Positions 1-35,069 of a DNA stretch of 64,000 bases are shown here, in pieces. Numbering within the stretch: the stretch's first letter is position 1; each line of letters begins with the position of its first letter. The translations under genes and the position numbers were made by a program. The DNA is from Eledone cirrhosa (taxonomy: Eukaryota), in assembly GCA_964016885.1 (NCBI GenBank), contig OZ024759.1, positions 27,590,001-27,654,000 of the forward strand, written 5' to 3'. The notes beneath the pieces were generated by a model. It worked only from the letters and a program-made list of their open reading frames with translations, did no database searches and was not told the DNA's origin.

Positions 1-628
1 CTCGTCTAAACCATGCTAGCATGGAAGAATGGACATTAAGCAGTGATGATGATAATGATACATATAATTTAATTTTGTAATTAAATTATATGTAATAATT
101 GTTTCTACTTTAGGCACAAATTAATAAGTAATAATTGTTTCTACTTTAGGCACAAGGCCAGCAATTACCCAGTGCATTACTGATACTTTATTTTATCGAC
201 CCCGTAAGGATGAAAGGCAAAGTCAACCTCGGCGGGATTTGAACTCAGATCGTAAAGGGACGTAACTAGGCTGGAAAGCATGGCGTCCGACTCTCTACCA
301 ATACTGCCAATCCACAATCATGTATAATGAATTATTTTAAATTTTTTTAACCCAAATTACTTTTAGGAATATTTCAAGTATCATATAGCTCAAGGCTTCA
401 GCTGGTGAACATCCAGGCCTTGACTGTAGGTTGTAAGGTAGGACGAAGAGGGGGATGCGAGGTGGAAGGAGGAAGAGGGAGATGAGAGGGGAAGGAGGAA
501 GAGGGGTATGAGAGAGAGAGAGAGAGAGATGAAGAGGGAGATCAGGAAACAGAGAGAGAAAGAGGAGAAAGAGGGAGAGGAGAGAGGAAGAGAGAGAGAG
601 GAGGAAACAAGCGATGAAAGGGAGGGGA

Positions 629-677
<49 letters not shown>

Positions 678-785
678 AGAGGAAAGTCAGGAGATGGTTG
701 TTCATTAATTTCCAAGTATTGTTTGTTAATTTCCAAGAAATAAAAGACTTTCTTGTTCTCCATATCACACATCTATGAGTAATTA

Positions 786-3700: not shown

Positions 3701-6700
3701 GGAGGTGGTGTGGTGGTGGTGAGGAGGTGGTGTGGTGGTGATGAGGAGGTGGTGTGGTGGTGGTGAGGAGGTGGTGTGGTGGTGATGAGGAGGTGGTGTG
3801 GTGGTGGTGAGGAGCTGGTGTGGTGGTGATGAGGAGCTGGTGTGGTGGTGATGAGGAGCTGGTGTGGTGGTGATGAGGAGGTGGTGTGGTGGTGATGAGG
3901 AGCTGGTGTGGTGGTGATGAGGAGCTGGTGTGGTGGTGATGAGGAGGTGGTGTGGTGGTGATGAGGAGCTGGTGTGGTGGTGGTGATGAGGAGGTGGTGT
4001 GGTGGTGATGAGGAGGTGGTGTGGTGGTGATGAGGAGCTGGTGTGGTGGTGATGAGGAGCTGGTGTGGTGGTGATGAGGAGGTGGTGTGGTGGTGATGAG
4101 GAGCTGGTGTGGTGGTGATGAGGAGCTGGTGTGGTGGTGATGAGGAGGTGGTGTGGTGGTGATGAGGAGCTGGTGTGGTGGTGATGAGGAGGTGGTGTGG
4201 TGGTGGTGAGGAGCTGGTGTGGTGGTGATGAGGAGCTGGTGTGGTGGTGATGAGGAGCTGGTGTGGTGGTGATGAGGAGCTGGTGTGGTGGTGATGAGGA
4301 GGTGGTGTGGTGGTGATGAGGAGCTGGTGTGGTGGTGGTGAGGAGGTGGTGTGGTGGTGATGAGGAGGTGGTGTGGTGGTGATGAGGAGCTGGTGTGGTG
4401 GTGATGAGGAGCTGGTGTGGTGGTGGTGAGGAGGTGGTGTGGTGGTGGTGAGGAGGTGGTGTGGTGGTGATGAGGAGGTGGTGTGGTGGTGATGAGGAGC
4501 TGGTGTGGTGGTGATGAGGAGGTGGTGTGGTGATGATGAGGAGGTGGTGTGGTGGTGATGAGGAGGTGGTGTGGTGGTGATGAGGAGGTGGTGTGGTGGT
4601 GGTGATGAGGAGCTGGTGTGGTGGTGGTGAGGAGCTGGTGTGGTGGTGATGAGGAGGTGGTGTGGTGGTGGTGATGAGGAGCTGGTGTGGTGGTGATGAG
4701 GAGGTGGTGTGGTGGTGATGAGGAGGTGGTGTGGTGGTGGTGATGAGGAGCTGGTGTGGTGGTGATGAGGAGGTGGTGTGGTGGTGATGAGGAGGTGGTG
4801 TGGTGGTGGTGATGAGGAGCTGGTGTGGTGGTGATGAGGAGGTGGTGTGGTGGTGGTGAGGAGCTGGTGTGGTGGTGATGAGGAGGTGGTGTGGTGGTGA
4901 TGAGGAGGTGGTGTGGTGGTGATGAGGAGGTGGTGTGGTGGTGATGAGGAGGTGGTGTGGTGGTGATGAGGAGCTGGTGTGGTGGTGATGAGGAGCTGGT
5001 GTGGTGGTGGTGAGGAGCTGGTGTGGTGGTGATGAGGAGGTGGTGTGGTGGTGATGAGGAGGTGGTGTGGTGGTGATGAGGAGGTGGTGTGGTGGTGGTG
5101 AGGAGGTGGTGTGGTGGTGGTGAGGAGGTGGTGTGGTGGTGATGAGGAGGTGGTGTGGTGGTGATGAGGAGCTGGTGTGGTGGTGATGAGGAGGTGGTGT
5201 GGTGGTGGTGAGGAGCTGGTGTGGTGGTGATGAGGAGGTGGTGTGGTGGTGATGAGGAGGTGGTGTGGTGGTGATGAGGAGGTGGTGTGGTGGTGGTGAG
5301 GAGGTGGTGTGGTGGTGATGAGGAGGTGGTGTGGTGGTGGTGAGGAGGTGGTGTGGTGGTGATGAGGAGGTGGTGTGGTGGTGGTGAGGAGCTGGTGTGG
5401 TGGTGATGAGGAGCTGGTGTGGTGGTGATGAGGAGCTGGTGTGGTGGTGGTGAGGAGCTGGTGTGGTGGTGATGAGGAGGTGGTGTGGTGGTGATGAGGA
5501 GCTGGTGTGGTGGTGATGAGGAGCTGGTGTGGTGGTGATGAGGAGGTGGTGTGGTGGTGATGAGGAGCTGGTGTGGTGGTGATGAGGAGCTGGTGTGGTG
5601 GTGATGAGGAGGTGGTGTGGTGGTGATGAGGAGCTGGTGTGGTGGTGATGAGGAGGTGGTGTGGTGGTGATGAGGAGCTGGTGTGGTGGTGATGAGGAGC
5701 TGGTGTGGTGGTGATGAGGAGGTGGTGTGGTGGTGATGAGGAGCTGGTGTGGTGGTGATGAGGAGGTGGTGTGGTGGTGGTGAGGAGCTGGTGTGGTGGT
5801 GATGAGGAGCTGGTGTGGTGGTGATGAGGAGCTGGTGTGGTGGTGATGAGGAGCTGGTGTGGTGGTGATGAGGAGGTGGTGTGGTGGTGATGAGGAGCTG
5901 GTGTGGTGGTGATGAGGAGGTGGTGTGGTGGTGGTGAGGAGCTGGTGTGGTGGTGATGAGGAGGTGGTGTGGTGGTGGTGAGGAGCTGGTGTGGGAGTGG
6001 TGAGGAGGTGGTGTGGGAGTGGTGAGGAGGTGGTGTGGGAGTGGTGAGGAGGTGGTGTGGGAGTGGTGAGGAGGTGGTGTGGTGGTGGTGAGGAGGTGGT
6101 GTGGTGGTGAGGAGCTGGTGTGGTGGTGGTGGTGAGGAGGTGGTGTGGTGGTGGTGAGGAGGTGGTGTGGTGGTGGTGAGGAGGTGGTGTGGTGGTGGTG
6201 ATGAGGAGGTGGTGTGGTGGTGGTGAGGAGCTGGTGTGGTGGTGATGAGGAGCTGGTGTGGTGGTGGTGATGAGGAGCTGGTGTGGTGGTGATGAGGAGG
6301 TGGTGTGGTGGTGATGAGGAGCTGGTGTGGTGGTGATGAGGGGCTGGTGTGGTGGTGGTGAGGAGCTGGTGTGGTGGTGATGAGGAGGTGGTGTGGTGGT
6401 GATGAGGAGGTGGTGTGGTGGTGATGAGGAGCTGGTGTGGTGGTGGTGAGGAGCTGGTGTGGTGGTGATGAGGAGCTGGTGTGGTGGTGGTGAGGAGGTG
6501 GTGTGGGAGAGGTGAGGAGGTGGTGTGGTGGTGATGAGGAGGTGGTGTGGTGGTGATGAGGAGGTGGTGTGGTGGTGGTGAGGAGCTGGTGTGGTGGTGA
6601 TGAGGAGCTGGTGTGGTGGTGGTGAGGAGGTGGTGTGGTGGTGAGGAGCTGGTGTGGGAGTGGTGAGGAGGTGGTGTGGGAGAGGTGAGGAGGTGGTGTG

Positions 6701-7078
6701 GTGGTGGTGAGGAGCTGGTGTGGGAGTGGTGAGGAGGTGGTGTGGGAGAGGTGAGGAGGTGGTGTGGTGGTGATGAGGAGCTGGTGTGGGAGTGGTGAGG
6801 AGGTGGTGTGGGAGAGGTGAGGAGGTGGTGTGGTGGTGGTGAGGAGCTGGTGTGGGAGTGGTGAGGAGGTGGTGTGGGAGTGGTGTGGTGGTGGTGAGGA
6901 GGTGGTGTGGGAGTGGTGTGGTGGTGATGAGGAGGTGGTGTGGTGGTGGTGAGGAGGTGGTGTGGGAGTGGTGTGGTGGTGGTGAGGAGGTGGTGTGGGA
7001 GTGGTGTGGTGGTGATGAGGAGGTGGTGTGGTGGTGGTGAGGAGGTGGTGTGGGAGTGGTGTGGTGGTGGTGAGGAGG
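786..7078. repeat. About 6.3-kb G-rich minisatellite, 21-bp unit GGTGTGGTGGTGATGAGGAG(C/G)T with 18/24-bp variants
   Basis: Direct reading; produces the spurious 2254-aa H/P/T/S ORF. Confidence 0.97.
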
Positions 7079-7633
7079 TATATATATATATATATATACA
7101 CGCTAGTGTATGTATATATATATATATATATATAGGCTTAAAAATGGAATGAGAATAAGAAGAAAGCTAGAAGGGGGGGGGGGGGGGGGTCCTCATCAGT
7201 TGTCTACTGGGGGTCTCAGATTTCTATCTGATAAATGGATTCAGATGTTAGAATCGTCTAACTCCATGAAACCTTGGGTAATGGAATAATTATATTGTGT
7301 TGTTTATTATGTAATTAAATAGCTCTGTACTATATATATATGGTCCCTAAGGAATCTAGGTGTTGAGGAAAGGCTTGTGAGGACAGTGCAAACTTTGTAC
7401 AGAGGTGCTGTCAGTAAAGTGAGGGTAGGTATAGAGTTTAGTGGAATTCCAGATACAAGTAGGAGTACATCAGGGTTCGGTCCTCAGTCCGCTCTTGTTC
7501 ATTATTAGCCAGAACAAGTTTAAGACTGGTTGATGATGATGATGATGATATGAAGTATTTCCGTAGGAAGGGTAAAGGAAAGGAGAGTGTTCTATGTATG
7601 CTACAGAGCTATTTAATTATGTAATAATTAAAT

Positions 7634-7933: not shown

Positions 7934-8027
7934 CGGCAAATATTTCTGTTGTGATGGTGCCCAAACCTCTACAATAACCTTTTTACATTCAGAAACATGT
8001 AACTGGGAGGCAGGTAGAACCACAAGT
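7934..8027 (-). CDS. Slimp: SLIMP-like exon 13
   Basis: tcag|LVVLPASQLHVSECKKVIVEVWAPSQQKYLP|gtaatg; corresponds to the SerRS ...KFDIEAWMP... segment. Confidence 0.8.
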
Positions 8028-11000
8028 CTGAAAGAAAATAATACATTAATGTTTAAATCACAATGGTGGCTGGTTTGTTAAAATCGGTAGAGCTTCAAAC
8101 AAAATTTTTTGCTGTATTTGTTTCAGCAGTTTTACATTCTAAGTTGAAATCCTGCCGAGGTCAAATTTGGCTTTCATCATTCCGACAACCTCCCTAGTGT
8201 TGGGGGATCTACACGATAAATGCACCCAGTACACTCTGTAAAATGGTTGGTGATAGGAAAAGGCAGCTCTAGAGAGGTTGCCGTGTCCTTTACGGGACAA
8301 GAAGGTTGTCATCATCATCAACATCATTTAACGTCCATTTTCCCTGTAAAGTACTTTGTGGTAGGAAAGGCACCCAGTACACTCTGTAAAGTGGTATGTG
8401 GTAGGAAAGACACACAGTATACTCTGTTAGGTGGTAGGAAAGACACCCAGTACACTCTGTAAAGTGGAGGGTAGAGTCCTCAAGCACACCTTCCAGCAAG
8501 TCATGTTAGAAGCACCTCTTTCCTATTGTTCCGGCCGGATCTACAGGCGAGACCAGCCAAGTTCATGGATGTTATTCAACCATCTTGCTCAGGGTTTTTC
8601 CATGGGTCTCCTGTTGGTTGGTTTTGCACATAAAATCTGTCCAGCGATTCAATCCAGATTTTTTATTTTCAAAATTATTTGAAAATGATAGGCAGTATCT
8701 TTCATAAAAAATATAGTAAGCCCAAGGCCAACAATTTTTTGGGGGAAAGGGAAAGTCGATTAAATTGACCCCAGTGCATGACTGGAACTTTATTCCATTG
8801 ACTCCGTAATGATGAAAGGCAACGATAACCTCGGTGGGATTTGAACTCAGAATGTAAAGAACTGTAACTCAATGTCACAAAGCATGACGTCCAATGCTCT
8901 ACCGATTCTGCCAATCCACCGCCCTCATTTAGAAATATAATAATGCAACACGTTGGAAGTGTTATTATATAATCATGAAAGACGAAGTAAATGATGTAGC
9001 CATTTTTACCTGGCAGGAAGATTTAGGTCAGAATAAAAGTTCCAAATAATGGTAAGGAGTTGCTGGAATTGGTCGTCTGATGAACTTTCATCGTGACACA
9101 CAGAACATACTTCACACTGGAAATAAAACAAAAGGATTTGTTTTTTTATGTTTTTAAATAGTAAAAAAATAATATTAAAAAATAAAAAATAAACAGTTGA
9201 ATTAAAATAATAGAAATAACAATTGCCAGCACCACCACCACCACCACCGCCACTGCCAACACCACCACTGCCACCACCATCACCATGCCAACCACTGCCA
9301 CCAACACCACCACCACTGCCACCATCACCACCACCACTGCCACCAACAACACCACCACCGCCATCACCATGCCAATCACTGCCACCACCACTGCCACCAC
9401 CATCACCATGCCAACCACTGTCATTATCACCACCACCACCACCAACACCACCACCATCACCACTGCTACCACCATCACCATGCCAACCACTGCCACCAAC
9501 ACCACCACCACTGCCACCATCACCACCACCACTGCCACCAACACCACCACCACCGCCATCACCATGCCAATCGCTGCCACCACCTTCCACCACCACTGCC
9601 ACCACCATCACCATGCCAACCACTGTCATTATCACCACCACCACCACCATCACCACTGCTACCACCATCACCATGCCAACCACTGCCACCAACACCACCA
9701 CCACTGCCACCATCACCACCACCACTGCCACCAACACCACCACCACCGCCATCACCATGCCAATCGCTGCCACCACCTTCCACCACCACTGCCACCACCA
9801 TCACCATGTCAACCACTGTCATTATCACCACCACCACCACCAACACCACCACCATCACCACTGCTACCACCATCACCATGCCAACCACTGCCACCAACAC
9901 CACCACCACTGCCACCATCACCACCACCACTGCCACCAACACCACCACCACCGCCATCACCATGCCAATCGCTGCCACCACCTTCCACCACCACTGCCAC
10001 CACCATCACCATGTCAACCACTGTCATTATCACCACCACCACCACCATCACCACTGCTACCACCATCACCATGCCAACCACTGCCACCAACACCACCACC
10101 ACTACCATCACCATCATCACCACCACCTTCACCATGCCAACCACCAGCCACCATTACCCTCATCACCGCTACCACCACGGGAGACAAAATAAGCATAGAG
10201 AAAAAAATAAAGAAAATAAAGAAAAAAATGGAAAACAAGTTTTGTATCCCTAACGATGACCACCTTATCCCTAACACTTCAACACCTCCAACATTGAAGC
10301 CCCCTAGACTTGTACTTTATTTATCAGCCCTGAATATATGAAAGGCAAAGTTGACCTCTGTAGAATTTGAACTCACAGCACAAGGAGCCAGAATAAATAC
10401 TACAAGGCATTTCATTCCTTTTCCTTTGGATTTGTAACCCCTGGTGGAATCACAGGGGCACCACATTGACAAACAGTGTTCCTTGGGCACTTTTAAAACC
10501 TGGCGGAGGTCCATCACCACCTCTCCAGGTCTGAACACAGCAGATTATCGCAAGAGAATGATAGAGGGTAAGGAGTGAGAAAGAGACATAGAGGAAGAAT
10601 TGACTCCAGTATTAGACTGGTACTTTTCTTCTTTATCAACTTTATCGGAAAAGAACGAAAGGCAACATTATGTATGTATGGTCTCGTAACTCCTTGTGGA
10701 CATGTAGGAGAGATGGGTGGCATAATGGCATTCAGTGCTTCTTAAGCATTTTTTTTTAAACCTGGCAGAGCCCATATCTTTCTCTCTAGGTATGAACACA
10801 GTAGATTTCATCCAAAGAAGGAGAGAGAGAAAGTATGAGAATGGAAGTGAGGAAGAGATATAGAAGAAGAATTGACCTCACTACTTGACTGGTACTTTTT
10901 TTTTTATCGACTTTGAAAAGGATAAAAGACAAAGCACAGCTGCATCACTTATAAAGGGTAATGAAAGGTGGGTGGGTAGGGGTGAAGGATTTGAAAATGA

Positions 11001-14000
11001 AAACTAAAAACAAAACATAAAAACAACATGACATATTATGACATACAGAAAATGTGAAATATTTCACCTTTGTGGTTTGAGAGGTGTTATATAAACCAAT
11101 GTCAGCACAACTGGATTGAACTGAAAAATACAAATTGAGAGGTTTATTTAAACTGGAGTCAGTACAACTGAACTGAACTGAGAAAACCAAATTGAGAGGT
11201 TTAAATAAACTGGAGTTAGTACAACTGGATTTAACTGAGAAACACATATTGAGAGGTTTATTTAAACTTGAGTTGGTATAACTGAACTGAACTGAGAAAA
11301 CCAAATTGAGAGGTTTAAATAAACTGGAGTCAGTACAACTGGATTTAACTGAGAAACACAGAGAGACAAATAAAATATTATCTCTCTATATATAAAATTC
11401 TTTGTCTGTCTGTCTGTTTCCTTATGCATTCTCAAATGGCTCGACCAAATCAAATCAAATTTTATAAGGTATTAGACCCCAGGATTAACAACATGTAATT
11501 TTTATTTTCATTTAAGATTAAAACAATATAACAGTTTATCTAAAATAATCTTTCGATAGTCAACTATATTAAACTACACTACGATGACGATGTCACATTT
11601 TGTATATGAGTGTGTATGTGTTTGTGAGTGTGTTTATGCATTCATTACGTACATTAGGCCTCAGTAAGTTACATACATCTTCAAGTAAATATTTAATCAG
11701 ATACACAAAGAATTAAACACACACACATCTACACATGTGATGACTGACAAGTATATGTGTGTGAGTGTATATGTGTGTGAGTATACATACATTTATGTGA
11801 TGATGTGAAACTGTGTGTGTTTTTTATAAATTTGTGCGAGTGTATGTGTGTCTGTTTGTGGGTTAAACTCTTTATTCTAAAAACACCAACACCAAAAACA
11901 CTACAAGTCTGGTGACACAATTCAACACCACTACAACACCAACAACAACAACACTATATCACCACTACCACCAACAATACTACAATACCACCACCACCAA
12001 CAATACTACAACAATACCAACAACACCAACAACAACAACACTACAGCAACAACTCTGGTGACACAATTCAACAACTGAGCCAAAATGAAAGCAATAAAAT
12101 CATACCAGGACAATAAGTTTTTCCTATAGAGAAATATGTTTGAGGAAGGCTTTTACAATCAACAGACATCCGTGTCAGAAAAGCTACAAAAGAAAATTAC
12201 ACGTATTATATGTATGTTTGTGTGTACATATCATCATCATTATCATCATCACCATTTTACGTCTGTTCTTCCAAGCTAGCATGGGTTAGACGGGTTGTCC
12301 TGCTGTAGGCATATCTGGTCAGCTGACCTTGTCTTGCTCATACAGGAACTGATTCTGGCTTGATTTCTACAGCTGGATGCCCTTCCTAACAACCAACTAC
12401 AGCGAGTGCTGGGTGCTTTTTTTTCCATGGCACCTCCGCGACCACTTTGTAGTGGAATGATAGGGACCCCAGTCCTATCATCTTATTTCTACAGCTGAGT
12501 AAACTGGAGCAATGTGAAATAAAGTGTTTTGCTCAAGGAAACGACACATTACCCGGTCCGAGAATTGAACTCACAACCTTTCGATTGCAAGCCCAATGCT
12601 CTAACCACTAAGCCATGCGCCTTCATATGTGTATACATTTGTGTGTGTGCTAATTCAAATGTTTATAGTATTTTTATTGATAGACAGATTGTTGTAAAAA
12701 TTTGCAGTATTAACTTTTAACATCCTGTAATGATTTATCAAAAAATATCTAAAAAAAAAGCTTTATTAAACTTTTAGCATTTAAACTTGCCGTATCTGGC
12801 TAGAATTCTCTCACTTCTTTCTGTTCAAAGCAGCTATAACCAGCTGCTCATATTGTTCTCAAAATAAATAATATCAAAATCTCATAGATTCAATATTATG
12901 TGAGATAATTATGTGAGTTAAAGGGTTTACTGTGAAAATACAATAGTAAATATAGAGTAATGTAAATGCTAAAGGGTTAAATCAAATGTTTGGTAGACAG
13001 ATTGTTGTAAAAATTTACAATATTATCTTTTAACATCCTGTAACAATTTATCAGAAAATATCTAAAAATAGTTTTGTTAAATCAAAAGGCTGGATACTCT
13101 TTCTATCACCATTTCTAAATAAAGACCCTCTCATCCAGCGTTTCTCAACCGGTGTTCCCTGGAACCCTAGGATTCCGCAAGAGGTCGCTAGGGGTTCCGC
13201 GAGAACCAGTGATAAATAAACTAATGTGTTTTAAAAAGTAATTTTTGTTAAATTTTATATTCGTAATTTTACTATACATTTACGGCATATTGTTGGAAAA
13301 TCCTTCTTTATTTTAAGAAAGGCTTCAACCTCTTATATTATTTAAAACTAGGTCAATATAAGAGATAGATATTAATAATAGTATATAATAATTTTTATGT
13401 AGGGGTTCCCTGAGACATGAACCTATTTCAAGGGTTCCACAAGGGTAAAAAGGTTGAGAAACGCTGCTCTAATCTAATAAAATGGTTACCTAATAAAATG
13501 AATACCCTACCTGCAAATGACATTGATGAAATGCCAACTAAATGAGTGAGGTGTTCTATTTTCGGGTTTTCTTCGCTGTTCTCTAAAGTGTAAATCTACA
13601 AAAGACAAAACGTAAAAAGAAAATTAAAATGCAACATCTGAAGATGGCTGAAGAAAGAACTGGTTGAAATGTTAAATAAATCATCATCATTATCACCACC
13701 ACCACCACTACCACGATATACTGTCTACCACCAACATTTGCGGAATTTTCCTTAGAACCTAACCAATAATTATTCGTGGTAACCACCGCATATTTGCGGA
13801 ATCGTAAATATATTTTTTAATGGCATTTTTGTGGCAATATATATATTTTTTAATGTTAAATTATTAATAACAATATACTGTATTTGCAGGCCTATTGGAT
13901 GCCCCTTCATATAAGACTCTCCCTCTTTTTTTATTATATTTTACATAATATTTTGACGTTTATAGGCATTTTTATGGACCACATCCAATATTCACATTTT

Positions 14001-17000
14001 TTCACTCTTCGCGAGTGCTCTAGGAACATAACCCCTACGAATAGAGGGACAACTGTATATAAAGGAAGGTAAAAGCCTGGCGGTTTTGAATTGTATATAG
14101 TACACCTTTTAAGGGTATATGTGTGGATGTTTACACATGGAGGCACATGGCTTAGTGGTTAGAGCATTGGGATTGCAATCGAAAGGTTGTGAGTTCAATT
14201 CTCAGACCGGGTGATGTGTTGTTTTCTTGAGCAAGACACTTTATTTCACATTGCTCCAGTTTACTCAGCTGTAGAAATGAGATGATAGGACTCGGTTATG
14301 TATAAGCAAGTCATGGTCAGCTGTAGAAATGATAGGGTCCCTATCATTCCACTGCAAAGTGGTCGTGGAGGTGCCACGGCAAAAAAGCACCCAGCACTCA
14401 CTGTAAATGAGGGGGGGAGGGGGGGGGGGGGGGGGCACATGTGTCTGTATGTATTGTAAAAACATGGTAACACAAACAAGAATATATCTCTCACCTTTTC
14501 AGAATCTGTAATGTCCACTCCACATCCCTCCTAGACAGAAAGGAACAAAAACAGACAATATTAGTGTATTTCACAAAATTTACTGTCACAAACAACAACA
14601 GCCCTACACAAGAGGCATAACTAGAGTACGGCAAGCCTGGCATTTGCCATGAGCCCCACTTTAGGGTTATCTGAAAGATGGGTGTCAGATGTTTGAGCAG
14701 GGGTGCAATTTCACTTCTTGCCATAGGTGCTATTTTCCCTAGTTACCTCTCTGCCCTACACATACACAACAAAAGAATAAGAATTTTAAGGCCATCATCC
14801 CAGCTAAAGCAGGGGTTTGACTTGTGGACCCCATGACAAGCTTCTCTTTTTCCCTATCATTTCTATCCTTACTCATCAACTCGTCTGGTTTTCATCATAT
14901 TTAGCCATGTCTGACTCCTCTCATCTAGTCACTTGCATCTTTCCTCAACATATGACCTAACCATCTCACACAATTTCTCACCACAACATTCATCACTGGC
15001 TCTATTCCTCATCCAGTCACTTTCATCTTTCCTCAACACATGACCCAGCCATCAAATTTAAAGATATCCAATATAAACCATTGTCCCCTACCATAACAAC
15101 AGTTTTAAATATTTCCGGACAGATTATCTGCTGGAATCCCATGTGGGTGAGACTCTCAGAGAAATGGTTGATAAACTTCCTCTCCAACCATGCCAGTGGA
15201 CCAAGCAGGAAATATGCACCATGTCCAATATCACTGCAAAACAATAAAACACATGCTTGTTAAGAACCACACGGGGAAATGTAGGAAGTATGAGAGAGAG
15301 AGACAGTTTAGAGAGCCAAAGGTGTATGGTGTCTTTTCGTCAAGATAGACCCCTCTTGGTTTTTTATATAAGATGATGATTGTCCAGTAATATTTTATGG
15401 TGTCTTTGGTGAAGGTAGACCTCTCTTCGTTCTGACATTAAAGGATGTTTGTCCAGTAAGATTTAATGGTGTCTTTGGTGAAGGTAGACCTCTCTTCGTT
15501 CTGACATTAAAGGATGTTTGTCCAGTAAGATTTAATGGTGTCTTTGGTGAAGGTAGACCTCTCTTCGTTCTGACATTAAAGGATGTTTGTCCAGTAAGAT
15601 TTTATGGTGTCTTTGGTGAAGGTAGACCTCTCTTCGTTCTGACATTAAAGGATGTTTGTCCAGTAAGATTTTATGGTGTCTTTGGTGAAGGTAGACCTCT
15701 CTTCGTTCTGACATTAAAGGATGTTTGTTCAGTAATATTTTATGGTGTCTTTGGTGAAGGTAGACCTCTCTTCGTTCTGACATCAAAGGATGTTTGTCAG
15801 TAAGATTTTATGGTGTCTTTGGTGAAGGTAGACCTCTCTTCGTTCTGACATTAAAGGATGTTTGTCCAGTAAGATTTTATGGTGTCTTTGGTGAAGGTAG
15901 ATATCTCTTCATTCTGACATTAAAGGATGTTTGTCCAGTAAGATTTTATATCTTTGGTCAAGATAGTTCACTCTGGTACTTTATTTTATTGACCCCCATA
16001 AGGTTGAAAGGCAAAGCTAACCACGGCAGGATTTGAACTCAGATCATGAAGGGGCATACCCTATGCAATAAAGTATGTTGGCCGATGCTCTACCAACACT
16101 GCTAATCCACAACACAAATAATAGGAAGAGAAGAGTTCAAGGCAACACATTGCAAATACTTAACTACAACAGGCTGTATGTATACAGAATTTACATATCT
16201 ATTATACAGTCTTTTACATTTCTGATAAGGCTTTTGGTAGTGGTTGAAACAAGTGTGACCACATGTTCACAAAGACATACTAGCACTGAGCATCTCACCT
16301 GAATTTAATCCAATTACGTTGTTGTCCCAGGGTCATATGATTAGGATGTGGCAGGTGAGTCAAACCTTTAAAAGAAACATTTTCTGGTTAAGAGAATTCT
16401 TGATCAGGTAGAAAATTTGGAGAATTCTTTAGGAAACAAGAATAAGTACAAGGCCAACAATTTGGTCAATTAAATCGACCCCAGTGCATTACTGGTGCTT
16501 TATTTCATCAACCTCATAAGGATGAAAGGCAAAGCTAACCTCTGCAGGATTTGAACTCAGAATGTAAAGGGACGTAAACTATATGCTGCAAATCACGTTG
16601 TCCAACACTCTGCCGATATTAATAACAATAGTAGAGGACTTACAAATATATACAGGATATAGAAAATAGCACAACTAGGCATTGCACAGATATTATGAAG
16701 AGTACACTCAAAACATCAGAAACAACAACCGCAAAGAACAATACTGCATATATCCAAGGCACAAACAGCTGTCCTCTGTAATGAGGTGATGACGCACAAT
16801 AACAATAAGATCAATAATTGCTTTTTGTCATGACACCAACACTATCACTTTACACATGTGTACTGGGAGCGTTTTGTTGTGACAACTAAACAACCAACCA
16901 CTTTACAGTGAAGGCTGAAGACTTCTTGTTATGTTACCTACACAACTGCAACTATATACAACAATAAAATTATCAATACAAATATATATACAACATCAAT

Positions 17001-20000
17001 AAAATTATTAATACAAATCTATTTACAATAATAAAAAATGTAATATTTAATAAATATATCTCACCATTTTCAGGAACATTTTCTTCCAAGATCTTCATGC
17101 CTTGTGTTGGCTACAATAAAACATAGCAAAAGCTGTAAGAAGACAATAAGACAGTCCAGCTATTGCTAGTATGATGATGATGGTGTTGGTGTTGGTGATG
17201 ATGATGATGGTAAAGGTGGAGGTGGTGATGATGGTAGTGGTAGTGGTGGTGATGATGATGGCGGTGGTGGTGGTGTTTTGATGATAGTGGTGGTGATGAT
17301 GATGGCGGTGGTGGTGGTAGTGATGATGATGGTGATGGTGGTGGTAATGGTGGTGGTGGTGGTGGTGGTGTTGATGATAATGATGGTAGCGGTGGTGGTG
17401 GTGGTGATGATGATGAATATGACAATGATGGTAGTAGTGGTGATGATGATGGTAGTGGTGGTGGTGATGATGATGAATATGACAATGATGGTGATGTTGA
17501 TGATGGTAGTGGTGATGGTGATGATGATGGTGCCTGCTCATACTTATGTTAACCTTTTAGCATTTAAACCAGCTATATCTGGCCATAATTCTCTCACCTC
17601 TTTCTGTTCAAACCAGTTGTAACCTGCCACTCATGCTGATGTTAAGGTATTGTTCTCAAAATAAATAATATCAAAATCTCATAGATTCGATATGATGTCA
17701 GGTAAAACCTTTACCACTAAAATATAGTAGTATATATAGTGTAATGTAGATGGTAAAGGGTTAATCCTAAGTCTGCTGTCAGCTCAATCAGGACTGACAG
17801 GAGCTAAATGACAACAACAACAACTTACTGTATCTTTATGTAGCACATTTGGTAACTTCAAACTTCGCATGATTACAGTCTCTTCCAAAATGTTGAAATC
17901 AGCCTAAAAAATTAATTAAATAAATAAATTAATATTTTCTTAATAATTTAAAATCCATTTTATCATGATCACGTTGCCATAACAAAAAGCACACAGTCCA
18001 CCCTGGCAAGGTGGTTATGAAGTTGCTATAACAAAAAGCACCCAGTCTACCCTGTAAGGTGGTCATGACATTGCTATAACAAAAAGCACCCAGTCCACTC
18101 TGTAAGGTGATCATATTGGTGACACGAGAAAAACCACCCAGCCCACTCTGTAAGGTGATTGTGTCGGTGCCACGACAAAAGCACCCAGTCCACACTATAA
18201 GGTGGTTGTGCTAGTGACAAGACAAAAGGCACCCAGTCCACCCTGTAAGGTCGTTGTGCTGGTGACAAGACAAAAGGCACCCAGTTCACCCAGTAAGGTG
18301 GTTGTGCTGGTGACCATACAAAAGGCACCCAGTTCACCCAGTAAGGTGGTTGTGCTAGTGACAAGACAAAAGGCATCCAGGCCACCCTGTTAGATGGTCA
18401 TTTTGGTGCCATGATAAAAAGCACCAAGTCCACACTGTAACATTGGTTGGTGTTAGAAAAGACATTCAGCAGTAGAGATCAATCCCAAAATACAGATCCG
18501 TATGAGTAAGACACAGTCTCCGGACCTGACTTATCTCATAACATGACAACCCATCTAACCCATGCAAGCGTGGAAAATGGACATTAAACAATGACGATGA
18601 TGATGATGTTAATGATGGTGATCGTGGTGGTGGTGACATGGGTATGGTTGGAGGTATATGACTAATTGGTGAAGTGTTGAGCTCACAACCATAAAGACTA
18701 TACCTGAAATACAAAGGGCCAGCCTTGTCATGTTGAATCTCAATGAGAGCTACAATAAAGACATATATGTCTGTGGAATACTCAGCCACTTACACTATAA
18801 CATAAGATGGACTCTATTATAAGAACCTTTTGTTAAGTTATGTTACAAATACCAGCTTAACCTTTTATCATTTAAACCAGCTGTATCCGGCCAGAATTCT
18901 CTCACCTCTTTCTGTTCAAACCAGCTGTAATTGTCCACTCATACCTACATTAAGGTATTGTTCTCAAAATAAATAATATCAAAATCTCATAGATTCGATA
19001 TTATGTGAGATAAAGCCTTTATCACGAAAATACAATAGTAAATATAGAGTAAGGTAAATGCTAAAGGGTTAATAATAAAATAATCATTTTAGTAAATCAG
19101 TCCAAATTCTTCATTAATTGAAGAGTATTTCATTAGAAATATGGACACAAAAAGGTTAACTTTCTTCTTCTCAAGTCATCCAATGTCTTGAGGTAGTGAT
19201 GAGGCATTAACAAAGTTCAAGCTTCGGAGTTCCCTGGTTGACCATTGCAGCATATAAATCCATTCCTTTGAGGCCTGTAGATGTCTTAATGGCTGATTTC
19301 AAGGTTATATACAGCTGACCAACTCATCTCTTTGCATTCAGAGTCCAGAGGAGCAATCAGCAATCCTCCAGTGCAAGGTTTCTCAAACTTTTTCAAACAC
19401 AAAACCCTATTTGGTTCAGAAACTTTTGGGGAAACCCCAAAGTCTAATACTGTTATATGATCGTAATATAAATATACTCCTCTACTATTTCCACGGAATC
19501 TCAGACACATGTTTGCGGAACCCACCTTGGGAACCACTGCTCCAGTGGGTTTATCATGGTGAGTGACATGGATGGCAAAGGGCCAGATGTTAACCTTTCT
19601 AATGAATTATAATTACTAGCAGAAAAACCACCCTTCGGGTGATTTTCTGCTAGCCTGTGTAGTGTACATATTGATATTATACGCAAGTATATATACATGT
19701 AGATATGATACATCAAATAAAATTGTAATTGACAATATACACAGAAATTGAACGAAGACTGCGTAATCTATGATACATTAAAAAAAGACGATCATCATCA
19801 TCATCATCATCAACGTTTAACGTCCGTGTTCCACGCTTGCATGGGTTTGGACGGGGGTAGTCCCACTTGAGGCAAGAGTGATTGTCTTGCTCACATAGGA
19901 CTGTCTGGCAGGTTTTCTACAGTTGGATGCCCTTCCTAACACCAACCACATTTACAGTGCGGGTCTGGGAGGTTTTTACCGTGTTGCCTACACGGCCACA

Positions 20001-23000
20001 TTACAGCGTGGACTGTGTGTTTTTTTGTCGTGACACCTACACGATCTCATTTGTTTCGGCCTGGATGGCGCGGCACCAACATAACTTTACATAGAACGGG
20101 GTGGTGTGGATGGGGTGGGGGTGGTGGCGGGACGGGGTGTAGTTTGTTAGAGATGCCTACTGGCAAGGCGGGTCTTCTCTGTTACTGAGTACCACCAAAG
20201 GTCACGGTCCAGTGACATTGTCTTGGAGAGGTGTAAGTGTGTGAGGTCGGAGTTTATCAGCTCATCCCATGTTTTTCTAGGTCTGCCTATTCCGTGGCTA
20301 CCGTCTATCTTTATTGCCCTGCACTTTGTAATACAGCTATCGACTTTCATGCGCATCACGTGTCCATACCAACGCAGCCTTCTCTCGAGTAAACAACATC
20401 TGATCCCTATTATATATAAACTGCATTAGGAGAAAATTAGTGACGGAAATATATGAATATTTATTTAAGCGATTGGTAACCGGAAGTGTTGACATTTGAA
20501 AATTTTAAAGAAGTGAATCTTTAAATAAGTAATAAAATATATTTAATGAACAGCCACAAAATTTAGTAGATAAATTATGTAATATTCATTCATTATTTAT
20601 TCAAAGTAATCCAACTTATTTTACTAAGGGGATAAAAAAATTATAAACCGTACGCAGTCCCGCGCTCCTTACTTTATTATAGTTTAGATTTCAGTTAAAT
20701 ATAAACTTACATTTAAAGTCTTTAGTGTCTGCCTCAGAGTTTTGCCACGAGGTTTCAGAATCTCCCTGGATTTCTTAACATCATCTGTTTCCTGAATAAA
20801 GATGAAAATATGTATTTGTTTATTAATGGTGTCGTCAGTATTACTCTTAGATACATGTGATGTTGATGATGATAATGATGATGAAGAAGATATATATATA
20901 TATGTGTGTGTAAATATATATCATCATCAACATCGTTTTACTAGAGGCTAAATAACAACAACAGCAGCAGCAACATCAACAGCTACAAACATAATTGTTT
21001 CTACTTGAGGCACAAGGCCAGCAATTACCCAGTGCATTACTGGTACTTACAAACATAATGGTTTCTGATTTAAGCACAAGGTCAACAATTTTAAGGAGAA
21101 GTCCATTAAATCGACGCCAGTGCATTACTGGTACTTCATTTGATTGACTCCTTAAAGATAAAAGGCAAAGCTAACCTGGGCGGGATTTGAACTCAGATGT
21201 AACTTTTATGTCCTGAGTTCAAATCCTGCCAACAACAACATAAACAATAGTACCATCTTCCAAACTTACTTTTACTTTAGTCAAAGCAGCCATCATGCTT
21301 GCAATAGTTCTTCTTTCTTCTTCCAGTTTCTCTTTCTCCATTTTTAATTTCATCAGCCATTTGTAATCCTCTGCCTGGTATTGAAAAAAATAAAAACATA
21401 ATGGACATTAGCGAGGAACCATACATAAGTAAGGACTGTACATTAGTAAGGACTGTACATTAGTAAGGACTGTATATAAGTAAGGACTGTACATTAGTAA
21501 GGACTGTACATTAGTAAGGACTGTATATAAGTAAGGACTGTACATTAGTAAGGACTGTATATAAGTAAGGACTGTACATTAGTAAGGACTGTACATTAGT
21601 AAGGACTGTACATTAGTAAGGACTGTACATTAGTAAGGACTGTACATTAGTAAGGACTGTACATTAGTAAGGACTGTACATTAGTAAGGACTGTACATTA
21701 GTAAGGACCGTACATTAGTAAGGACTGTACATTAGTAAGGACTGTACATTAGTAAGGACTGTACATTAGTAAGGACTGTACATTAGTAAGGACTGTACAT
21801 TAGTAAGGACTGTACATTAGTAAGGACTGTATTTTAGTAAGGACTGTACATTAGTAAAGACTGTACATTAGTAAGGACCGTACATTAGTAAGGACTGTAT
21901 ATTAGTAAGGACTGTACATTAGTAAGGACTGTACATTAGTAAGGACTGTATTTTAGTAAGGACTGTACATTAGTAAAGACTGTACATTAGTAAGGACCGT
22001 ACATTAGTAAGGACTGTATATTAGTAAGGACTGTACATTAGTAATGACTGTATATTAGTAAGGACTGTACATTAGTAAGGACTGTACATAAGTAAGGACT
22101 GTACATTAGTAATGACTGTACATAGGACTGTATATAAGTAAGGACTGTACATTAGTAAGGACTGTACATTAGTAAGGACTGTACATTAGTAAGGGCTGTA
22201 CATTAGTAAGGACTGTACATTAGTAAGGACTGTACATTAGTAAGGACTGTATATAAGTAAGGACTGTACATTAGTAAGGACTGTACATTAGTAAGGACTG
22301 TATATAAGTAAGGACTGTACATAAGTAAGGACTGTACATTAGTAAGTACTGTACATTAGTAAGGACTCTACATTAGTAAGGACTGTACATAAGTAAGGAC
22401 TGTACATTAGTAAGGACTGTACATTAGTAAGGACTGTACATAAGTAAGGACTGTACATTAGTAAGGACTGTACATTAGTAAGGACTGTACATAAGTAAGG
22501 ACTGTACATTAGTAATGACCACATTAGTAAGGACTGTATATTAGTAAGGAGTGTACATAAGTAAGGACTACATTAGTAATGACTGTACATAGGACTGTAT
22601 ATAAGAAGGGAGTGTATATAAAGATTGTATAGAGGGGAGTGTAAATAAGGACTGTATAAGGGGAGGACTATATATAAGGAGTGTTTATAAGGAGCATATT
22701 CCTGGCCTGTCCAGGAGATTAGCAGCCCCACTTCAGTACTGACTTGGTTTATGTAGACCTGTCCAACCCTAGCTAGCAGAGTAAGCAGACATTAAAACAA
22801 TGATGGTGATGATGAAGATAAAGATTATGATGATGATGATAGTCATGAAGATTAAGAAGATGATGATGATGATGATGATGATGATGGTGATAATGGTGAT
22901 TGATAATGATGAAGATGACTATGATGATGATGATGGTGATGATGATAATGAAGATGACAATGACGATGATGATGATGATAAAATGTACAATATATAAACA

Positions 23001-23339
23001 ACAACTCACCAAATCTTCTAAATTCATCTTTACACAGTTCCGAACACTTGTATTGGTTTTCAGCTCATCCAGGTTTTGGAATCTTTCTGCTAGATTTAAC
23101 GAGACATTTACGACTGGCGTGCGGCTCTCCTCAGAACGATTTACATAGAGTGAGGATGTAGAATGGCATCGAATGGGCTGAAGTCCACAATACCATAATT
23201 TGAAGGCACCGTTGGTTCTCTGAGGTCTAGAACCAACCAATAAATTCTTCCTTGGTATCAATGTCAAACAGCGAGATAATACTCCTGTTGACTTCTGATC
23301 CATGAGAAGTTTTCGAGTTGATAGCCTGAAAGCAGCCAT
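7934..23339 (-). CDS. Slimp: SLIMP-like catalytically degenerate mitochondrial seryl-tRNA synthetase paralogue (13 exons, 433 aa recovered; C-terminal exon(s) not found)
   Basis: GT-AG exons 23339-23010, 21374-21270, 20791-20711, 17903-17829, 17110-17065, 16365-16299, 15233-15092, 14530-14495, 13595-13511, 12183-12106, 11120-11068, 9116-9010 and 8027-7934 join in phase. Features: Arg/Ser/Leu-rich presequence, coiled-coil arm, LKLPNVLH, HMTLG, AYFLLGPLAWLE, PEIFKTVVMEGCG, EVWAPS (SerRS fold). HLVGISS replaces GTAE and KTYCP..GLYNTSQT replaces CYRAE..GLYRVHQF. Confidence 0.8.
9010..9116 (-). CDS. Slimp: SLIMP-like exon 12
   Basis: ccag|CEVCSVCHDESSSDDQFQQLLTIIWNFYSDLNLPA(R)|gtaaaa. Confidence 0.8.
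9225..10178. repeat. (CAC)-rich compound repeat with about 180-195-bp higher-order units
   Basis: Blocks catcaccatgccaaccactg / caatcgctgccaccaccttcc recur. Confidence 0.9.
11068..11120 (-). CDS. Slimp: SLIMP-like exon 11 (shortest form; upstream in-frame acceptors exist)
   Basis: tcag|(V)QSSCADIGLYNTSQTTK|gtgaaa. Confidence 0.75.
11121..11360 (-). repeat. 57-bp tandem repeat derived from the acceptor and 5' part of SLIMP exon 11 (4 extra units)
   Basis: CAG acceptors immediately before 11348, 11291, 11234, 11177 and 11120, exactly 57 nt apart. Confidence 0.85.
12106..12183 (-). CDS. Slimp: SLIMP-like exon 10 (degenerate motif 2)
   Basis: gtag|(A)FLTRMSVDCKSLPQTYFSIGKTYCP|gtatga. Confidence 0.8.
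13136..13466. mobile_element. hAT (Charlie-like) MITE
   Basis: TIRs CAGCGTTTCTCAACC / GGTTGAGAAACGCTG; 8-bp TSD ctctcatc/ctctaatc. Confidence 0.85.
13511..13595 (-). CDS. Slimp: SLIMP-like exon 9 (degenerate TxE region)
   Basis: gtag|IYTLENSEENPKIEHLTHLVGISSMSFA+G|gtaggg; 85 nt. Confidence 0.8.
14140..14410 (+). mobile_element. tRNA-derived SINE with RTE-LINE-derived 3' tail (copies at 12230-12625 -, 49340-49672 -, 49795-49913 -, 30993-31110 +, 54685-54800 -)
   Basis: A box tggcttagtgg, B box gagttcaattc, central ttgagcaagacacttt; tail matches the RTE 3' UTR. Confidence 0.8.
14495..14530 (-). CDS. Slimp: SLIMP-like exon 8
   Basis: ctag|EGCGVDITDSEK|gtgaga; completes the VMEGCG motif of mitochondrial SerRS/SLIMP. 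Confidence 0.8.
15092..15233 (-). CDS. Slimp: SLIMP-like exon 7 (class II motif 1 region)
   Basis: gcag|DIGHGAYFLLGPLAWLERKFINHFSESLTHMGFQQIICPEIFKTVVM|gtaggg. Confidence 0.85.
15380..15960. repeat. 69-bp tandem repeat, about 8 copies
   Basis: Unit tccagtaagattttatggtgtctttggtgaaggtagacctctcttcgttctgacattaaaggatgtttg. Confidence 0.95.
16299..16365 (-). CDS. Slimp: SLIMP-like exon 6
   Basis: aaag|(G)LTHLPHPNHMTLGQQRNWIKF(S)|gtgaga; HxxLG SerRS motif; phases 1/2 fit both neighbours. Confidence 0.8.
17065..17110 (-). CDS. Slimp: SLIMP-like exon 5
   Basis: gtag|PTQGMKILEENVPEN+G|gtgaga; 46 nt, phase fits exon 6. Confidence 0.7.
17829..17903 (-). CDS. Slimp: SLIMP-like exon 4
   Basis: ttag|ADFNILEETVIMRSLKLPNVLHKDT|gtaagt; contains the SerRS LPN motif. 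Confidence 0.85.
17975..18440. repeat. About 48-bp tandem repeat derived from a LINE/SINE 3' UTR motif
   Basis: acaaaaggcacccagtccaccctgtaaggtggttgtgctggtgacaag-like units. Confidence 0.8.
18858..19071. mobile_element. TTAA-flanked piggyBac-like MITE (other copies at about 12767-12980, 17549-17764, 58284-59672)
   Basis: ttaaccttt..catttaa ... gtaaatgctaaagggttaa termini; conserved internal sequence in at least 4 copies. Confidence 0.7.
19374..19539. mobile_element. hAT MITE
   Basis: CAAGGTTTCTCAA...TTGGGAACCACTG with perfect 8-bp TSD ctccagtg. Confidence 0.8.
20147..20412 (-). mobile_element. RTE LINE 3' fragment (related subfamily; similar piece at about 60925-61470)
   Basis: RLRWYGHVMRMK..GRPRKTWDELINSDL; followed by the shared LINE 3' UTR down to about 19790. 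Confidence 0.75.
20711..20791 (-). CDS. Slimp: SLIMP-like exon 3
   Basis: tcag|ETDDVKKSREILKPRGKTLRQTLKTLN|gtaagt; 81 nt. Confidence 0.8.
21270..21374 (-). CDS. Slimp: SLIMP-like exon 2 (coiled-coil arm)
   Basis: ccag|AEDYKWLMKLKMEKEKLEEERRTIASMMAALTKVK|gtaagt; 105 nt. Confidence 0.8.
21421..22600. repeat. 17-bp minisatellite (CATTAGTAAGGACTGTA)n, about 1.2 kb
   Basis: Direct reading. Confidence 0.97.
23010..23339 (-). CDS. Slimp: SLIMP-like exon 1 (mitochondrial targeting peptide and N-terminus)
   Basis: caagATGgct start; MAAFRLSTRKLL...RFQNLDELKTNTSVRNCVKMNLEDL, then GTGAGT donor; 330 nt, phase 0. Confidence 0.8.
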
Positions 23340-23879
23340 CTTGTATGACATAACACTATTGGTATCTCTATAACGAGGGATGATGGTACTGGTCACTTGG
23401 GATCACAAGGGGATCAGTAGCTAGGATTACAGTTGTTAGATTTATTCAGTAGAACAAAGCTAAGGATAATCCTCTTGTAAATTATCTTGAGAAGATGCCA
23501 TACTGTAAAATATGAAAATAGAAATAAAATTAATATAGAGGATCGAGACCTCTGGCATTACGCAGTAATATAGAAGACCCGCCTTCCCATGTGCATGGGT
23601 TGAAGCATACACCCCAATATGCACCTCTCCCTCCACTATTCCAAACACCTCCCACGTCCTAACACCCCACCCTTCATTCATGACCTTATACCCTTTTCAC
23701 CCCAGCCCCCAGTCAACAGCCTATACTGTAAAGTGATCATTTTGGTACCATGATAAAAAGCACCCAGTCCACACTGTAAATGTAGTTGAGCACTTGTTAG
23801 AATGTAGGAACATGTGTAAGTGAGGAGCCCTTAGTAGCATACAGGAAAATAAAATAATGATTTCTTTATTTATGTTTTT

Positions 23880-33635: not shown

Positions 33636-34039
33636 AGATTGATACACACACAATTTTGCATTTACGTGCATTTGTGTGTATGTATGTACATGTGTGTGTG
33701 TACACACCAGTAACTATAGACGAAGTCAGGTGCGGTTGTAACATATTCAAACCTAACGGCACCCATCCCATCTCCAGATATGAATACAAAGAAGAGAGAG
33801 AATCAACCTCAGTACAGGACTGGTACTTTTCTTCTCTCTCTCTTTTTCATGGACATGGCAAAAAATTAAAGCTAAAGTTAACATCGATCAATTCGCCGCA
33901 CATTTCATTTTTATAAATTGTATTAAATAAAGAAAATCATATATGGTTTGTTTTAAAAAATAATTTCAATTTATAATAAATAACATACATAGTTCATGTT
34001 ACTGTTCTGACAATGTTTAAAAAGAAAAAAGAAAATCAT

Positions 34040-34987
34040 TTACATCACGAATGGATAATTTTTTAAGAAGTCCACTAGAAATGTTGGCAAACCTAACGAA
34101 TCTCTCCAATCTTCCTTTAACGATACTTCCAAAGTTCGATTTTGTTCCATTGATCGGTTATTTACAGATAGACGACATAAATGTGCCAAAGAAGGAACCG
34201 AATGTAATTTCGCTGAGGTAAGTTCCGAAGATTTATATCTCTTGTTGTTACAGTCGACCCAAACACATCGGTGACCGTTATTCAACAGGCATGGGTCCCG
34301 CCGGTTAGAATAAAATTGTACAAGGTCTATTATACTTTTGAAATGTGGCATTTGCTTTTGTAACTTTGCATCGCAGTCTAAATGAAAATGTCCTTTATTG
34401 TATGCGATCCTGACGCTTGTAACTCCTTGTAGTGAACTGATGCTTAACGAATATAAAAATTTAGAACTGGAACTATACCGTACAAGAAATGTACCATGTT
34501 TAGAATTACAAAGTAAAGATTTCGCATCTGCGTTACTGATTCCTCCGTAAAACCATTTACCGTAATGTAAACACTGTAAGTTGTAAGAAAGAATCTGGTA
34601 ATCGCTAAAGTTTTCTGTTATTTGCGAGGGTGACAAAGATGCTGGCACTTCAGATGTCGAACTTGTTTGGAGATAGCCTGAAGATTGATTACCACCACTA
34701 CTACTACCTCTACTACCATTACTATTATTATTGGTATTAATAATATTATTATTACTATCATTGGTAATATTATTATTAATAGTAATGTTATTGGTAATAC
34801 TAATGGTATTTGTAGTAGAGGTATCCCTGGTGGGGTTACATATTTCAGTTTTTGTAACTTCGAAGTCACTTTCACCTTGGTCGTTGTAATCCAGCTTGGA
34901 AGTAGAATTAATATCTAATTTTTTCGTTTTTTTGACACAATATACAATTTTTGTATTCGGTTTTAAGTAAGGAAAACACGGAGGCAT
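34040..34987 (-). CDS. SOCS2: Suppressor of cytokine signalling, SOCS2/CIS-like (SH2 + SOCS box), 315 aa, single coding exon
   Basis: SH2 domain WFYGGISNADAKSLLCNSKHGTFLVRYSSSSKFLYSLS..TSVRI; SOCS box VPSLAHLCRLSVN...LPTFLVDFLKNYP; Asn/Thr/Ser-rich N-terminus; first in-frame ATG at 34987. Confidence 0.9.
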   Translation of the reverse strand: MPPCFPYLKPNTKIVYCVKKTKKLDINSTSKLDYNDQGESDFEVTKTEICNPTRDTSTTNTISITNNITINNNITNDSNNNIINTNNNSNGSRGSSSGGNQSSGYLQTSSTSEVPASLSPSQITENFSDYQILSYNLQCLHYGKWFYGGISNADAKSLLCNSKHGTFLVRYSSSSKFLYSLSISSLQGVTSVRIAYNKGHFHLDCDAKLQKQMPHFKSIIDLVQFYSNRRDPCLLNNGHRCVWVDCNNKRYKSSELTSAKLHSVPSLAHLCRLSVNNRSMEQNRTLEVSLKEDWRDSLGLPTFLVDFLKNYPFVM

Positions 34988-35069
34988 GACTGCACCAACG
35001 GTGTAATTGATGGATATAGTTTCAAACACATGTTGCTCGACAGTTTAAATAACATTACGTAAATTCTGT

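What the first reader, a model, noticed from the sequence alone, without database searches (positions are those of the whole stretch)
7934..23339. SLIMP-type pseudo-seryl-tRNA synthetase in an apparent mollusc genome
Seen: 13 in-phase exons give a SerRS-fold protein with a mitochondrial-type presequence. The serine-binding TxE motif reads HLVGISS, the invariant motif-2 Arg is Cys (KTYCP versus CYRAE), and GLYRVHQF reads GLYNTSQT, losing the adenine-stacking Phe. Known: SLIMP is a non-aminoacylating SerRS2 paralogue characterised in Drosophila, where it heterodimerises with SerRS2 and interacts with LON protease to control mtDNA levels. It is reported mainly from insects and a few other invertebrates. 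Inference: this is a lophotrochozoan SLIMP that pipelines would mislabel SARS2, implying the same mitochondrial module may operate here.
Basis: partly seen in the sequence, partly recalled or inferred. Interest (0 to 1): 0.75.

Follow-up and report, generated by a model that had tools for sequence, protein, structure and literature searches.

The report
Octopus SLIMP, a known dead synthetase
This octopod gene encodes SLIMP, a copy of the mitochondrial serine-loading enzyme that has lost its catalytic residues but kept its tRNA-gripping arm and likely works paired with a separate catalytic subunit; it is ordinary in invertebrates and already described in Octopus.

Summary
Thirteen GT-AG exons on the minus strand read in phase without a stop. 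Two corrections: exon 6 starts at 16365, and the gene continues past the window by at least two exons. A spliced 1,724-nt contig matches five exons letter for letter. The protein is 70% identical to Octopus bimaculoides SLIMP and sits in the SLIMP clade (100/100). It keeps 2 of 15 catalytic-site residues, the coiled coil and the tRNA-reading Arg. The same genome holds a separate mitochondrial SerRS (15 of 15 residues, coiled coil collapsed) and a cytosolic SerRS. So the identification is right, but the novelty is not: PMC10570016 reports SLIMP in all molluscs examined and aligns the O. bimaculoides protein by name, and NCBI already names these orthologues Slimp. Likely role: tRNA-binding subunit of a one-site heterodimer; the LON link is untested outside Drosophila. 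An intron-based idea that the catalytic partner is an ancient retrocopy failed. The scan had not noted a SLIMP on other DNA.

The parts
7934..23339 (-). SLIMP gene, coding exons 1-13 (433 codons); continues beyond the window start in G000:C20 (exon 14 = L008:8523-8437, exon 15 = L008:6043-5969; last exon not located)
23010..23339 (-). Coding exon 1 (330 nt): basic presequence-like residues 1-60 and the N-terminal segment before the coiled coil
   Evidence: run X1 holds all 38 sampled words of 23005-23400
21270..21374 (-). Exon 2 (105 nt): first helix of the coiled coil
   Evidence: helix 106-141 in the model of the orthologue
20711..20791 (-). Exon 3 (81 nt): second helix of the coiled coil with Arg165, equivalent to human Arg146 and fly SLIMP Arg123
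17829..17903 (-). Exon 4 (75 nt): end of the coiled coil and the LPN motif
17065..17110 (-). Exon 5 (46 nt)
   Evidence: spliced contig
16299..16365 (-). Exon 6 (67 nt); acceptor fixed by the spliced contig
15092..15233 (-). Exon 7 (142 nt): dimer-interface region; acceptor-stem Arg replaced by Gly240
   Evidence: one match in the genome
14495..14530 (-). Exon 8 (36 nt)
   Evidence: fills the gap between exons 7 and 9 in the contig by length
13511..13595 (-). Exon 9 (85 nt): degenerate TxE serine-binding loop (Ile316, Ser318)
12106..12183 (-). Exon 10 (78 nt): motif-2 Arg replaced by Cys347
11068..11120 (-). Exon 11 (53 nt): motif-2 Arg, His and Phe replaced by Asn360, Ser362, Thr364
9010..9116 (-). 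Exon 12 (107 nt): keeps motif-2 Glu368
7934..8027 (-). Exon 13 (94 nt), same length and homologous stretch as human SARS2 exon 13
23340..23502 (-). Likely 5' untranslated part of exon 1, behind an acceptor-like pyrimidine tract and AG; holds a 13-codon upstream ORF

Best explanation
This is the single, spliced SLIMP gene of an octopod: its product has lost the serine- and ATP-binding residues but kept the coiled-coil arm, and likely serves as the tRNA-binding half of a heterodimeric mitochondrial seryl-tRNA synthetase whose catalytic half is encoded on contig C12. Shown here: exon structure, splicing of exons 5-10, clade membership, loss of 13 of 15 catalytic-site residues, the kept arm with Arg165, and the mirror-image partner gene. 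Inferred from Drosophila biochemistry: import into mitochondria; pairing through the usual SerRS dimer surface; the SLIMP arm gripping the T-arm of mitochondrial tRNA-Ser while the partner's site activates and transfers serine, giving one working site per dimer. Binding to LON and control of TFAM and mtDNA are possible but untested.
For: Tree of 51 proteins: the window protein lies in a 14-row SLIMP clade at 100/100, the genome's C12 protein with Octopus and Argonauta SerRS2 at 100/99. Catalytic-site residues kept: 2 of 15 in the window protein, 15 of 15 in the C12 protein; 35 of 36 reference SerRS2-type proteins keep all 15 (Arg or Lys at the first). The four positions named in PMC10570016 as lost in SLIMP are all changed (Gly240, Cys347, Asn360, Thr364). 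Arm region between fixed anchors: 90 residues here, 40 in the C12 protein, 94-95 in 4 of 7 vertebrate rows, and 62, 62 and 84 in three isoform-labelled rows. Models of orthologues: 36- and 39-residue helices in SLIMP, 13- and 16-residue helices in SerRS2-alpha; best fold matches are mammalian mitochondrial SerRS. The arm is the best-conserved region against three cephalopod orthologues (80, 76, 68%). Complex model of stand-ins (O. vulgaris SerRS2 with O. bimaculoides SLIMP): 0.92 against best control 0.05, runs agreeing in at least 86% of contacts, partner pLDDT at least 86; that mark was reached by 51 of 78 solved and 2 of 108 mismatched microbial pairs, and by 39 of 65 solved and 2 of 126 unrelated eukaryotic pairs. 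Because SerRS homodimers are solved, this pass likely shows likeness only. In Drosophila neither subunit charges tRNA alone and the SLIMP arm and its Arg123 are required (PMC10570016).
Against: No biochemistry exists here for any mollusc. Folds, Pfam scans and the complex used orthologues at 70% and about 80% identity, not this genome's proteins. Motif-3 Arg472 and motif-2 Glu368 are kept, so the pocket is not wholly erased. No Drosophila SLIMP was in my tree; the link to it rests on NCBI-named arthropod SLIMPs and on the paper's alignment. The last exon was not found.
Confidence: 0.9

Rival explanations
1. It is a SLIMP orthologue, but in cephalopods it acts apart from aminoacylation (for example as an RNA-binding or protease adaptor), and the C12 enzyme works as a homodimer.
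For: No mollusc assay exists. Nematode SerRS2 lacks the coiled coil with no SLIMP detected (PMC10570016), so an armless SerRS2 may be able to work by another route.
Against: The C12 protein has no tRNA-binding arm. The arm and Arg165 are the best-kept part of the window protein. The interface model matches the ordinary dimer surface (by likeness).
Confidence: 0.06
2. It is a divergent but active mitochondrial SerRS, the genome's SARS2.
For: SerRS fold, coiled coil and presequence-like N-terminus are all present; an older record named the orthologue a serine--tRNA ligase.
Against: 13 of 15 catalytic-site residues are changed; a separate gene with 15 of 15 lies on C12; the protein groups with SLIMP at 100/100.
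Confidence: 0.01
3. It is a decaying duplicate (pseudogene) or a chance chain of short frames.
For: Single exons gave 0 Pfam hits in 7 of 7 pieces tried.
Against: No stop or frameshift in 487 codons over 15 exons; spliced contig with 0 mismatches; 66-75% identity of the dead catalytic core to three orthologues against 28-59% in the presequence.
Confidence: 0.01

Closest known systems
Octopus bimaculoides SLIMP (XP_052831740.1 and isoforms; 'Octopus_bimaculoides_SLIMP' in the supplement of PMC10570016)
   Same: Orthologue: 70% identity, same length class, same lost residues, same coiled-coil Arg.
   Different: Ordinary sequence drift: Cys in place of His at the motif-2 Arg position, Ile-Ser-Ser in place of Val-Ser-Pro in the TxE loop.
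Drosophila SLIMP / SerRS2-alpha heterodimer (PMC10570016; reviewed in PMC10817482)
   Same: Dead pocket plus kept arm in one subunit, live pocket plus collapsed arm in the other; Thr at the Phe position and Arg in the arm are shared with fly SLIMP.
   Different: Heterodimer, aminoacylation, LON binding and cell-cycle role are shown for the fly only. The cephalopod protein keeps the motif-2 Glu, where the fly has Gln.
Vertebrate homodimeric mitochondrial SerRS (SARS2; PDB 7TZB, 7U2B, 1WLE)
   Same: Same fold, coiled coil, Arg146 equivalent; at least 7 of 15 intron positions coincide.
   Different: SARS2 has both functions in one chain and two sites per dimer; identity to the window protein is about 23%.

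Membership tests
SLIMP | SerRS fold derived from mitochondrial SerRS2 | tested here: met
   On orthologue P0001: best PDB sequence hits and fold hits are mammalian mitochondrial SerRS; PF00587 above cut-off, PF02403 below cut-off at E 0.0014.
SLIMP | Groups with SLIMP sequences, apart from SerRS2 | tested here: met
   14-row clade at 100/100 holding NCBI-named cephalopod, wasp and crayfish SLIMPs. Long branch; fly SLIMP not in the set.
SLIMP | Collapsed catalytic pocket (fly N191, N297, T312, T316 positions) | tested here: met
   Gly240, Cys347, Asn360, Thr364; 13 of 15 sites changed.
SLIMP | Coiled coil kept with the tRNA-reading Arg (human R146, fly R123) | tested here: met
   90-residue arm region with Arg165; two long helices at pLDDT about 90 in the orthologue's model.
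SLIMP | Accompanied by a SerRS2-alpha with intact site and no coiled coil | tested here: met
   G000:C12, three coding exons, 464 codons, 15 of 15 sites, 40-residue arm region; orthologue model and Pfam agree.
SLIMP | C-tail lost | tested here: inconclusive
   Last exon not located; orthologues end shortly after motif 3.
SLIMP | Mitochondrial location | tested here: inconclusive
   Residues 1-60: 11 basic, 1 acidic, amphipathic moment 0.70 against a 90th percentile of 0.45 in the rest. Composition only.
SLIMP | Obligate heterodimer with SerRS2-alpha | tested here: inconclusive
   Model of stand-ins 0.92 against best control 0.05 (mark reached by 51 of 78 solved, 2 of 108 mismatched pairs); likely by likeness to solved SerRS dimers.
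SLIMP | No ATP binding or aminoacylation alone; required for the dimer's activity | not testable with these tools
   Shown for Drosophila only (PMC10570016).
SLIMP | Binds LON and promotes TFAM turnover | not tested
   Drosophila only.
Active mitochondrial SerRS (SARS2 / SerRS2-alpha) | Intact TxE loop, motif-2 Arg and Phe, motif-3 residues | tested here: not met
   2 of 15 kept.

The most novel reading that the evidence does not exclude
Vertebrate SARS2 descends from the SLIMP copy of the bilaterian duplication, before that copy died, and chordates lost SerRS2-alpha instead; then no 'reversion' of a collapsed coiled coil is needed, contrary to the model of PMC10570016. The tree does not reject SLIMP plus vertebrate SARS2 as one clade (p-AU 0.22, 8.2 log-likelihood units worse), and the two share the arm, its Arg and at least 7 introns. 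These shared traits are ancestral, and other molluscs' SerRS2-alpha seem to keep the same introns, so nothing here favours this reading.
Probability: 0.08. Interest if true: 0.5.

Novelty: already known. Interest (0 to 1): 0.12.

Why it matters
It adds one more octopod to a distribution already published, and gives a corrected gene model plus the partner gene. It matters only as material: a cephalopod pair would let someone test whether the one-site heterodimer and the LON link shown in flies hold in a mollusc, which PMC10570016 leaves open.

Tried and rejected
Pfam on single exon frames: 0 hits in 7 of 7; the pieces are too short. Run search: no RNA holder listed; 4 runs of unrecorded kind from one study. 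Runs X2-X4 showed only intron-spanning pieces among those listed. First model of exon 6 (start 16383) rejected by the contig. A candidate exon near 19,160-19,300 has stops in all three frames and is not needed for phase. Search for the last exon over 36 kb (1,954 AG sites): no convincing hit; the best score had a poor acceptor, the second (C20:27567686) is unverified, and my re-check read the wrong locus. Retrocopy idea: this genome's SerRS2-alpha has 2 coding introns, neither at a SLIMP position, and one unnamed invertebrate locus (L017) has 3, none shared. But isoform and fragment breakpoints in clam, snail, oyster and mussel SerRS2-alpha fall at SLIMP/vertebrate introns 1, 7, 13 and 14 (output partly cut), so an ancient retro-origin is rejected. 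Metagenome scan: 1 of 80 loci looked eukaryotic by its spread; the other 79 (best-segment identity 32-44%) were not examined. Synteny with the mitoribosomal S12 gene, the neighbour of mammalian SARS2 (PMC1802594, search listing only): 4 matches, on C28 and C2, none on C20 or C12. No wider profile search for SLIMPs was obtained, so the SLIMP set is 13 proteins. P0122 was dropped from the tree as an aberrant isoform. Paper searches for a mollusc SLIMP study or an intron analysis listed none beyond PMC10570016; subscription journals are not covered.
Full report
Observation. The window is G000:C20:27590001-27654000 of a 3.0-Gb genome. Thirteen exons between 23339 and 7934 all have AG acceptors and GT donors and chain in phase with no stop. 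A search with exon 7 returned 1 protein of 1 candidate, named 'serine--tRNA synthetase-like protein Slimp [Octopus bimaculoides]'. The spliced product is 70% identical to it, 70% and 68% to the O. sinensis and O. vulgaris proteins, and 61% to the Argonauta protein. The source is therefore an octopod, though none of those three species.

Corrections to the model. The gene runs past the window: exons at L008:8523-8437 and 6043-5969 carry the rest of the catalytic core, including motif 3. The 15 exons give 487 codons without a stop. The last exon was not found. One 1,724-nt contig of run X1 holds exons 7, 9 and 10 and exons 5 and 6 with 0 mismatches, at record positions that agree with the model and leave room for exactly exon 8. 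It puts the exon 6 acceptor at 16365. The run's kind is not on record; that it is RNA is my inference from the joined form and from the single genomic match of exon 7.

What it is. A serS profile found two other loci in the genome: a three-exon mitochondrial-type gene on C12 and a cytosolic-type gene on C17. The C12 protein's nearest relatives are named mitochondrial serine--tRNA ligases of Octopus and Argonauta (87% and 81% over the query). I scored 15 catalytic-site positions, four named in PMC10570016 and the rest recalled SerRS motif residues. The window protein keeps 2 of 15 (Glu368, Arg472), the C12 protein 15 of 15, and 35 of 36 reference SerRS2-type proteins all 15. The arm region shows the mirror image: 90 residues with Arg165 in the window protein, 40 in the C12 protein. 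Arg165 aligns with human Arg146 and fly SLIMP Arg123. Models of the orthologues agree: a long two-helix arm in SLIMP (mean pLDDT 70.5), short helices in SerRS2-alpha (85.8). The top 7 fold matches are mammalian mitochondrial SerRS.

Tree. 51 of 52 rows were used: 3 from this genome, all 13 SLIMP-like proteins, and 35 of the 120 listed; one aberrant isoform was dropped. The window protein lies in a 14-row SLIMP clade at 100/100, and the C12 protein with octopod SerRS2 at 100/99. The order among SLIMP, vertebrate, ambulacrarian and protostome SerRS2 is unresolved. The arm is the most conserved region against the three cephalopod orthologues tested, and the dead core still holds 66-75%, as expected of a working structural subunit.

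How it likely works. In Drosophila neither chain charges tRNA alone; the pair does, and deleting the SLIMP arm or changing Arg123 abolishes activity (PMC10570016). The same complementary losses here make the same one-site heterodimer the best reading. A complex model of stand-in orthologues scored 0.92 against a best control of 0.05, with at least 86% contact agreement and partner pLDDT of at least 86; the mark was reached by 51 of 78 solved and 2 of 108 mismatched microbial pairs, and 39 of 65 and 2 of 126 eukaryotic ones. Solved SerRS homodimers exist, so this likely shows likeness rather than binding. Import, dimerisation and activity are inferred. The LON/TFAM role is known for the fly only.

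What is known. [quoted passage not shown] Its supplement lists Octopus, Lottia and Crassostrea in the tree and aligns 'Octopus_bimaculoides_SLIMP', 503 residues, matching P0001 in the rows shown. Its figshare data were not seen. The original fly papers were not read; they are cited through this paper and through passages of PMC10817482. NCBI names 4 of 4 named cephalopod orthologues Slimp. The finding is thus already known.

A side lead. SLIMP here has at least 15 coding exons and the C12 gene 3. Seven of 15 SLIMP intron positions match vertebrate SARS2 by tool evidence: introns 1, 6, 7 and 11 by isoform breakpoints, intron 6 also by c.654-14 (PMC9723649, passages), and introns 12-14 by the 94-bp human exon 13 and c.1347G>A (PMC13446559, passages). 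The other eight had no such evidence in hand, and introns 2 and 15 look shifted. I asked whether SerRS2-alpha is an old retrocopy, which would make vertebrate SARS2 the SLIMP-locus gene. Breakpoints in other molluscs' SerRS2-alpha fall at introns 1, 7, 13 and 14, so the shared introns are ancestral and the loss is likely a later event in the cephalopod line. The clade test leaves the orthology open (p-AU 0.22). One detail departs from the paper's wording of complete loss: motif 3 keeps Arg or Lys in 14 of 14 SLIMP rows and Arg in the fly.

Earlier notes of this scan listed a dead SerRS paralogue in diatoms and a doubtful giant-virus protein, not a SLIMP; neither was checked. Verdict: a real, spliced, ordinary SLIMP gene; interest 0.12.

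Noticed in passing
L012:6573-3573 (G000:C12, about 46.29 Mb): The catalytic partner gene has only 2 coding introns, neither at an ancestral position, while other molluscs seem to keep several; possibly a cephalopod retro-replacement or wholesale intron loss.
   Followed up: partly
L008:6043-5969 (exon 15): Motif-3 Arg472 is kept; Arg or Lys in 14 of 14 SLIMP rows. Motif-2 Glu368 is kept in the 7 closest rows only. Probably structural; untested.
   Followed up: partly
window 23340-23502 (-): Acceptor-like site at 23502 followed at once by a 13-codon upstream ORF in the frame of the main ORF, and a second in-frame ATG four codons before the conserved start.
   Followed up: partly
window 34043-35044 (-): 334-codon open frame with an SH2 domain and a SOCS box just under its cut-off: a SOCS-family gene.
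   Followed up: partly
window 48675-49010 (-): NUDIX hydrolase exon; resembles the Ap4A hydrolase NUDT2 (recalled, not tested). Its nearness to SLIMP is probably chance.
   Followed up: partly
window 57658-58074 (+), with shorter frames near 60026-60283 and 62824-63210: Open frames that look like exons of a further gene; 57658-58074 gave no Pfam hit.
   Followed up: no
window 31897-33639 (+), 37481-38626 (+), 44197-47320 (-): Broken frames resembling LINE endonuclease and reverse transcriptase (read by eye, not searched).
   Followed up: no
window about 340-7140, 9220-10180, 15370-15940, 21420-22550: Long simple and tandem repeats inside introns, including a 6.8-kb CAC-rich array in intron 13 and a 19-bp unit array in intron 1.
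   Followed up: no
L017:3940-5610: Metagenome contig with an unnamed invertebrate-like SerRS2-alpha gene: short arm region, 3 short introns, one long last exon.
   Followed up: partly
L013 and L014 (G000:C17, about 40.80 Mb): Cytosolic SerRS gene in about 11 exons with catalytic motifs intact.
   Followed up: partly
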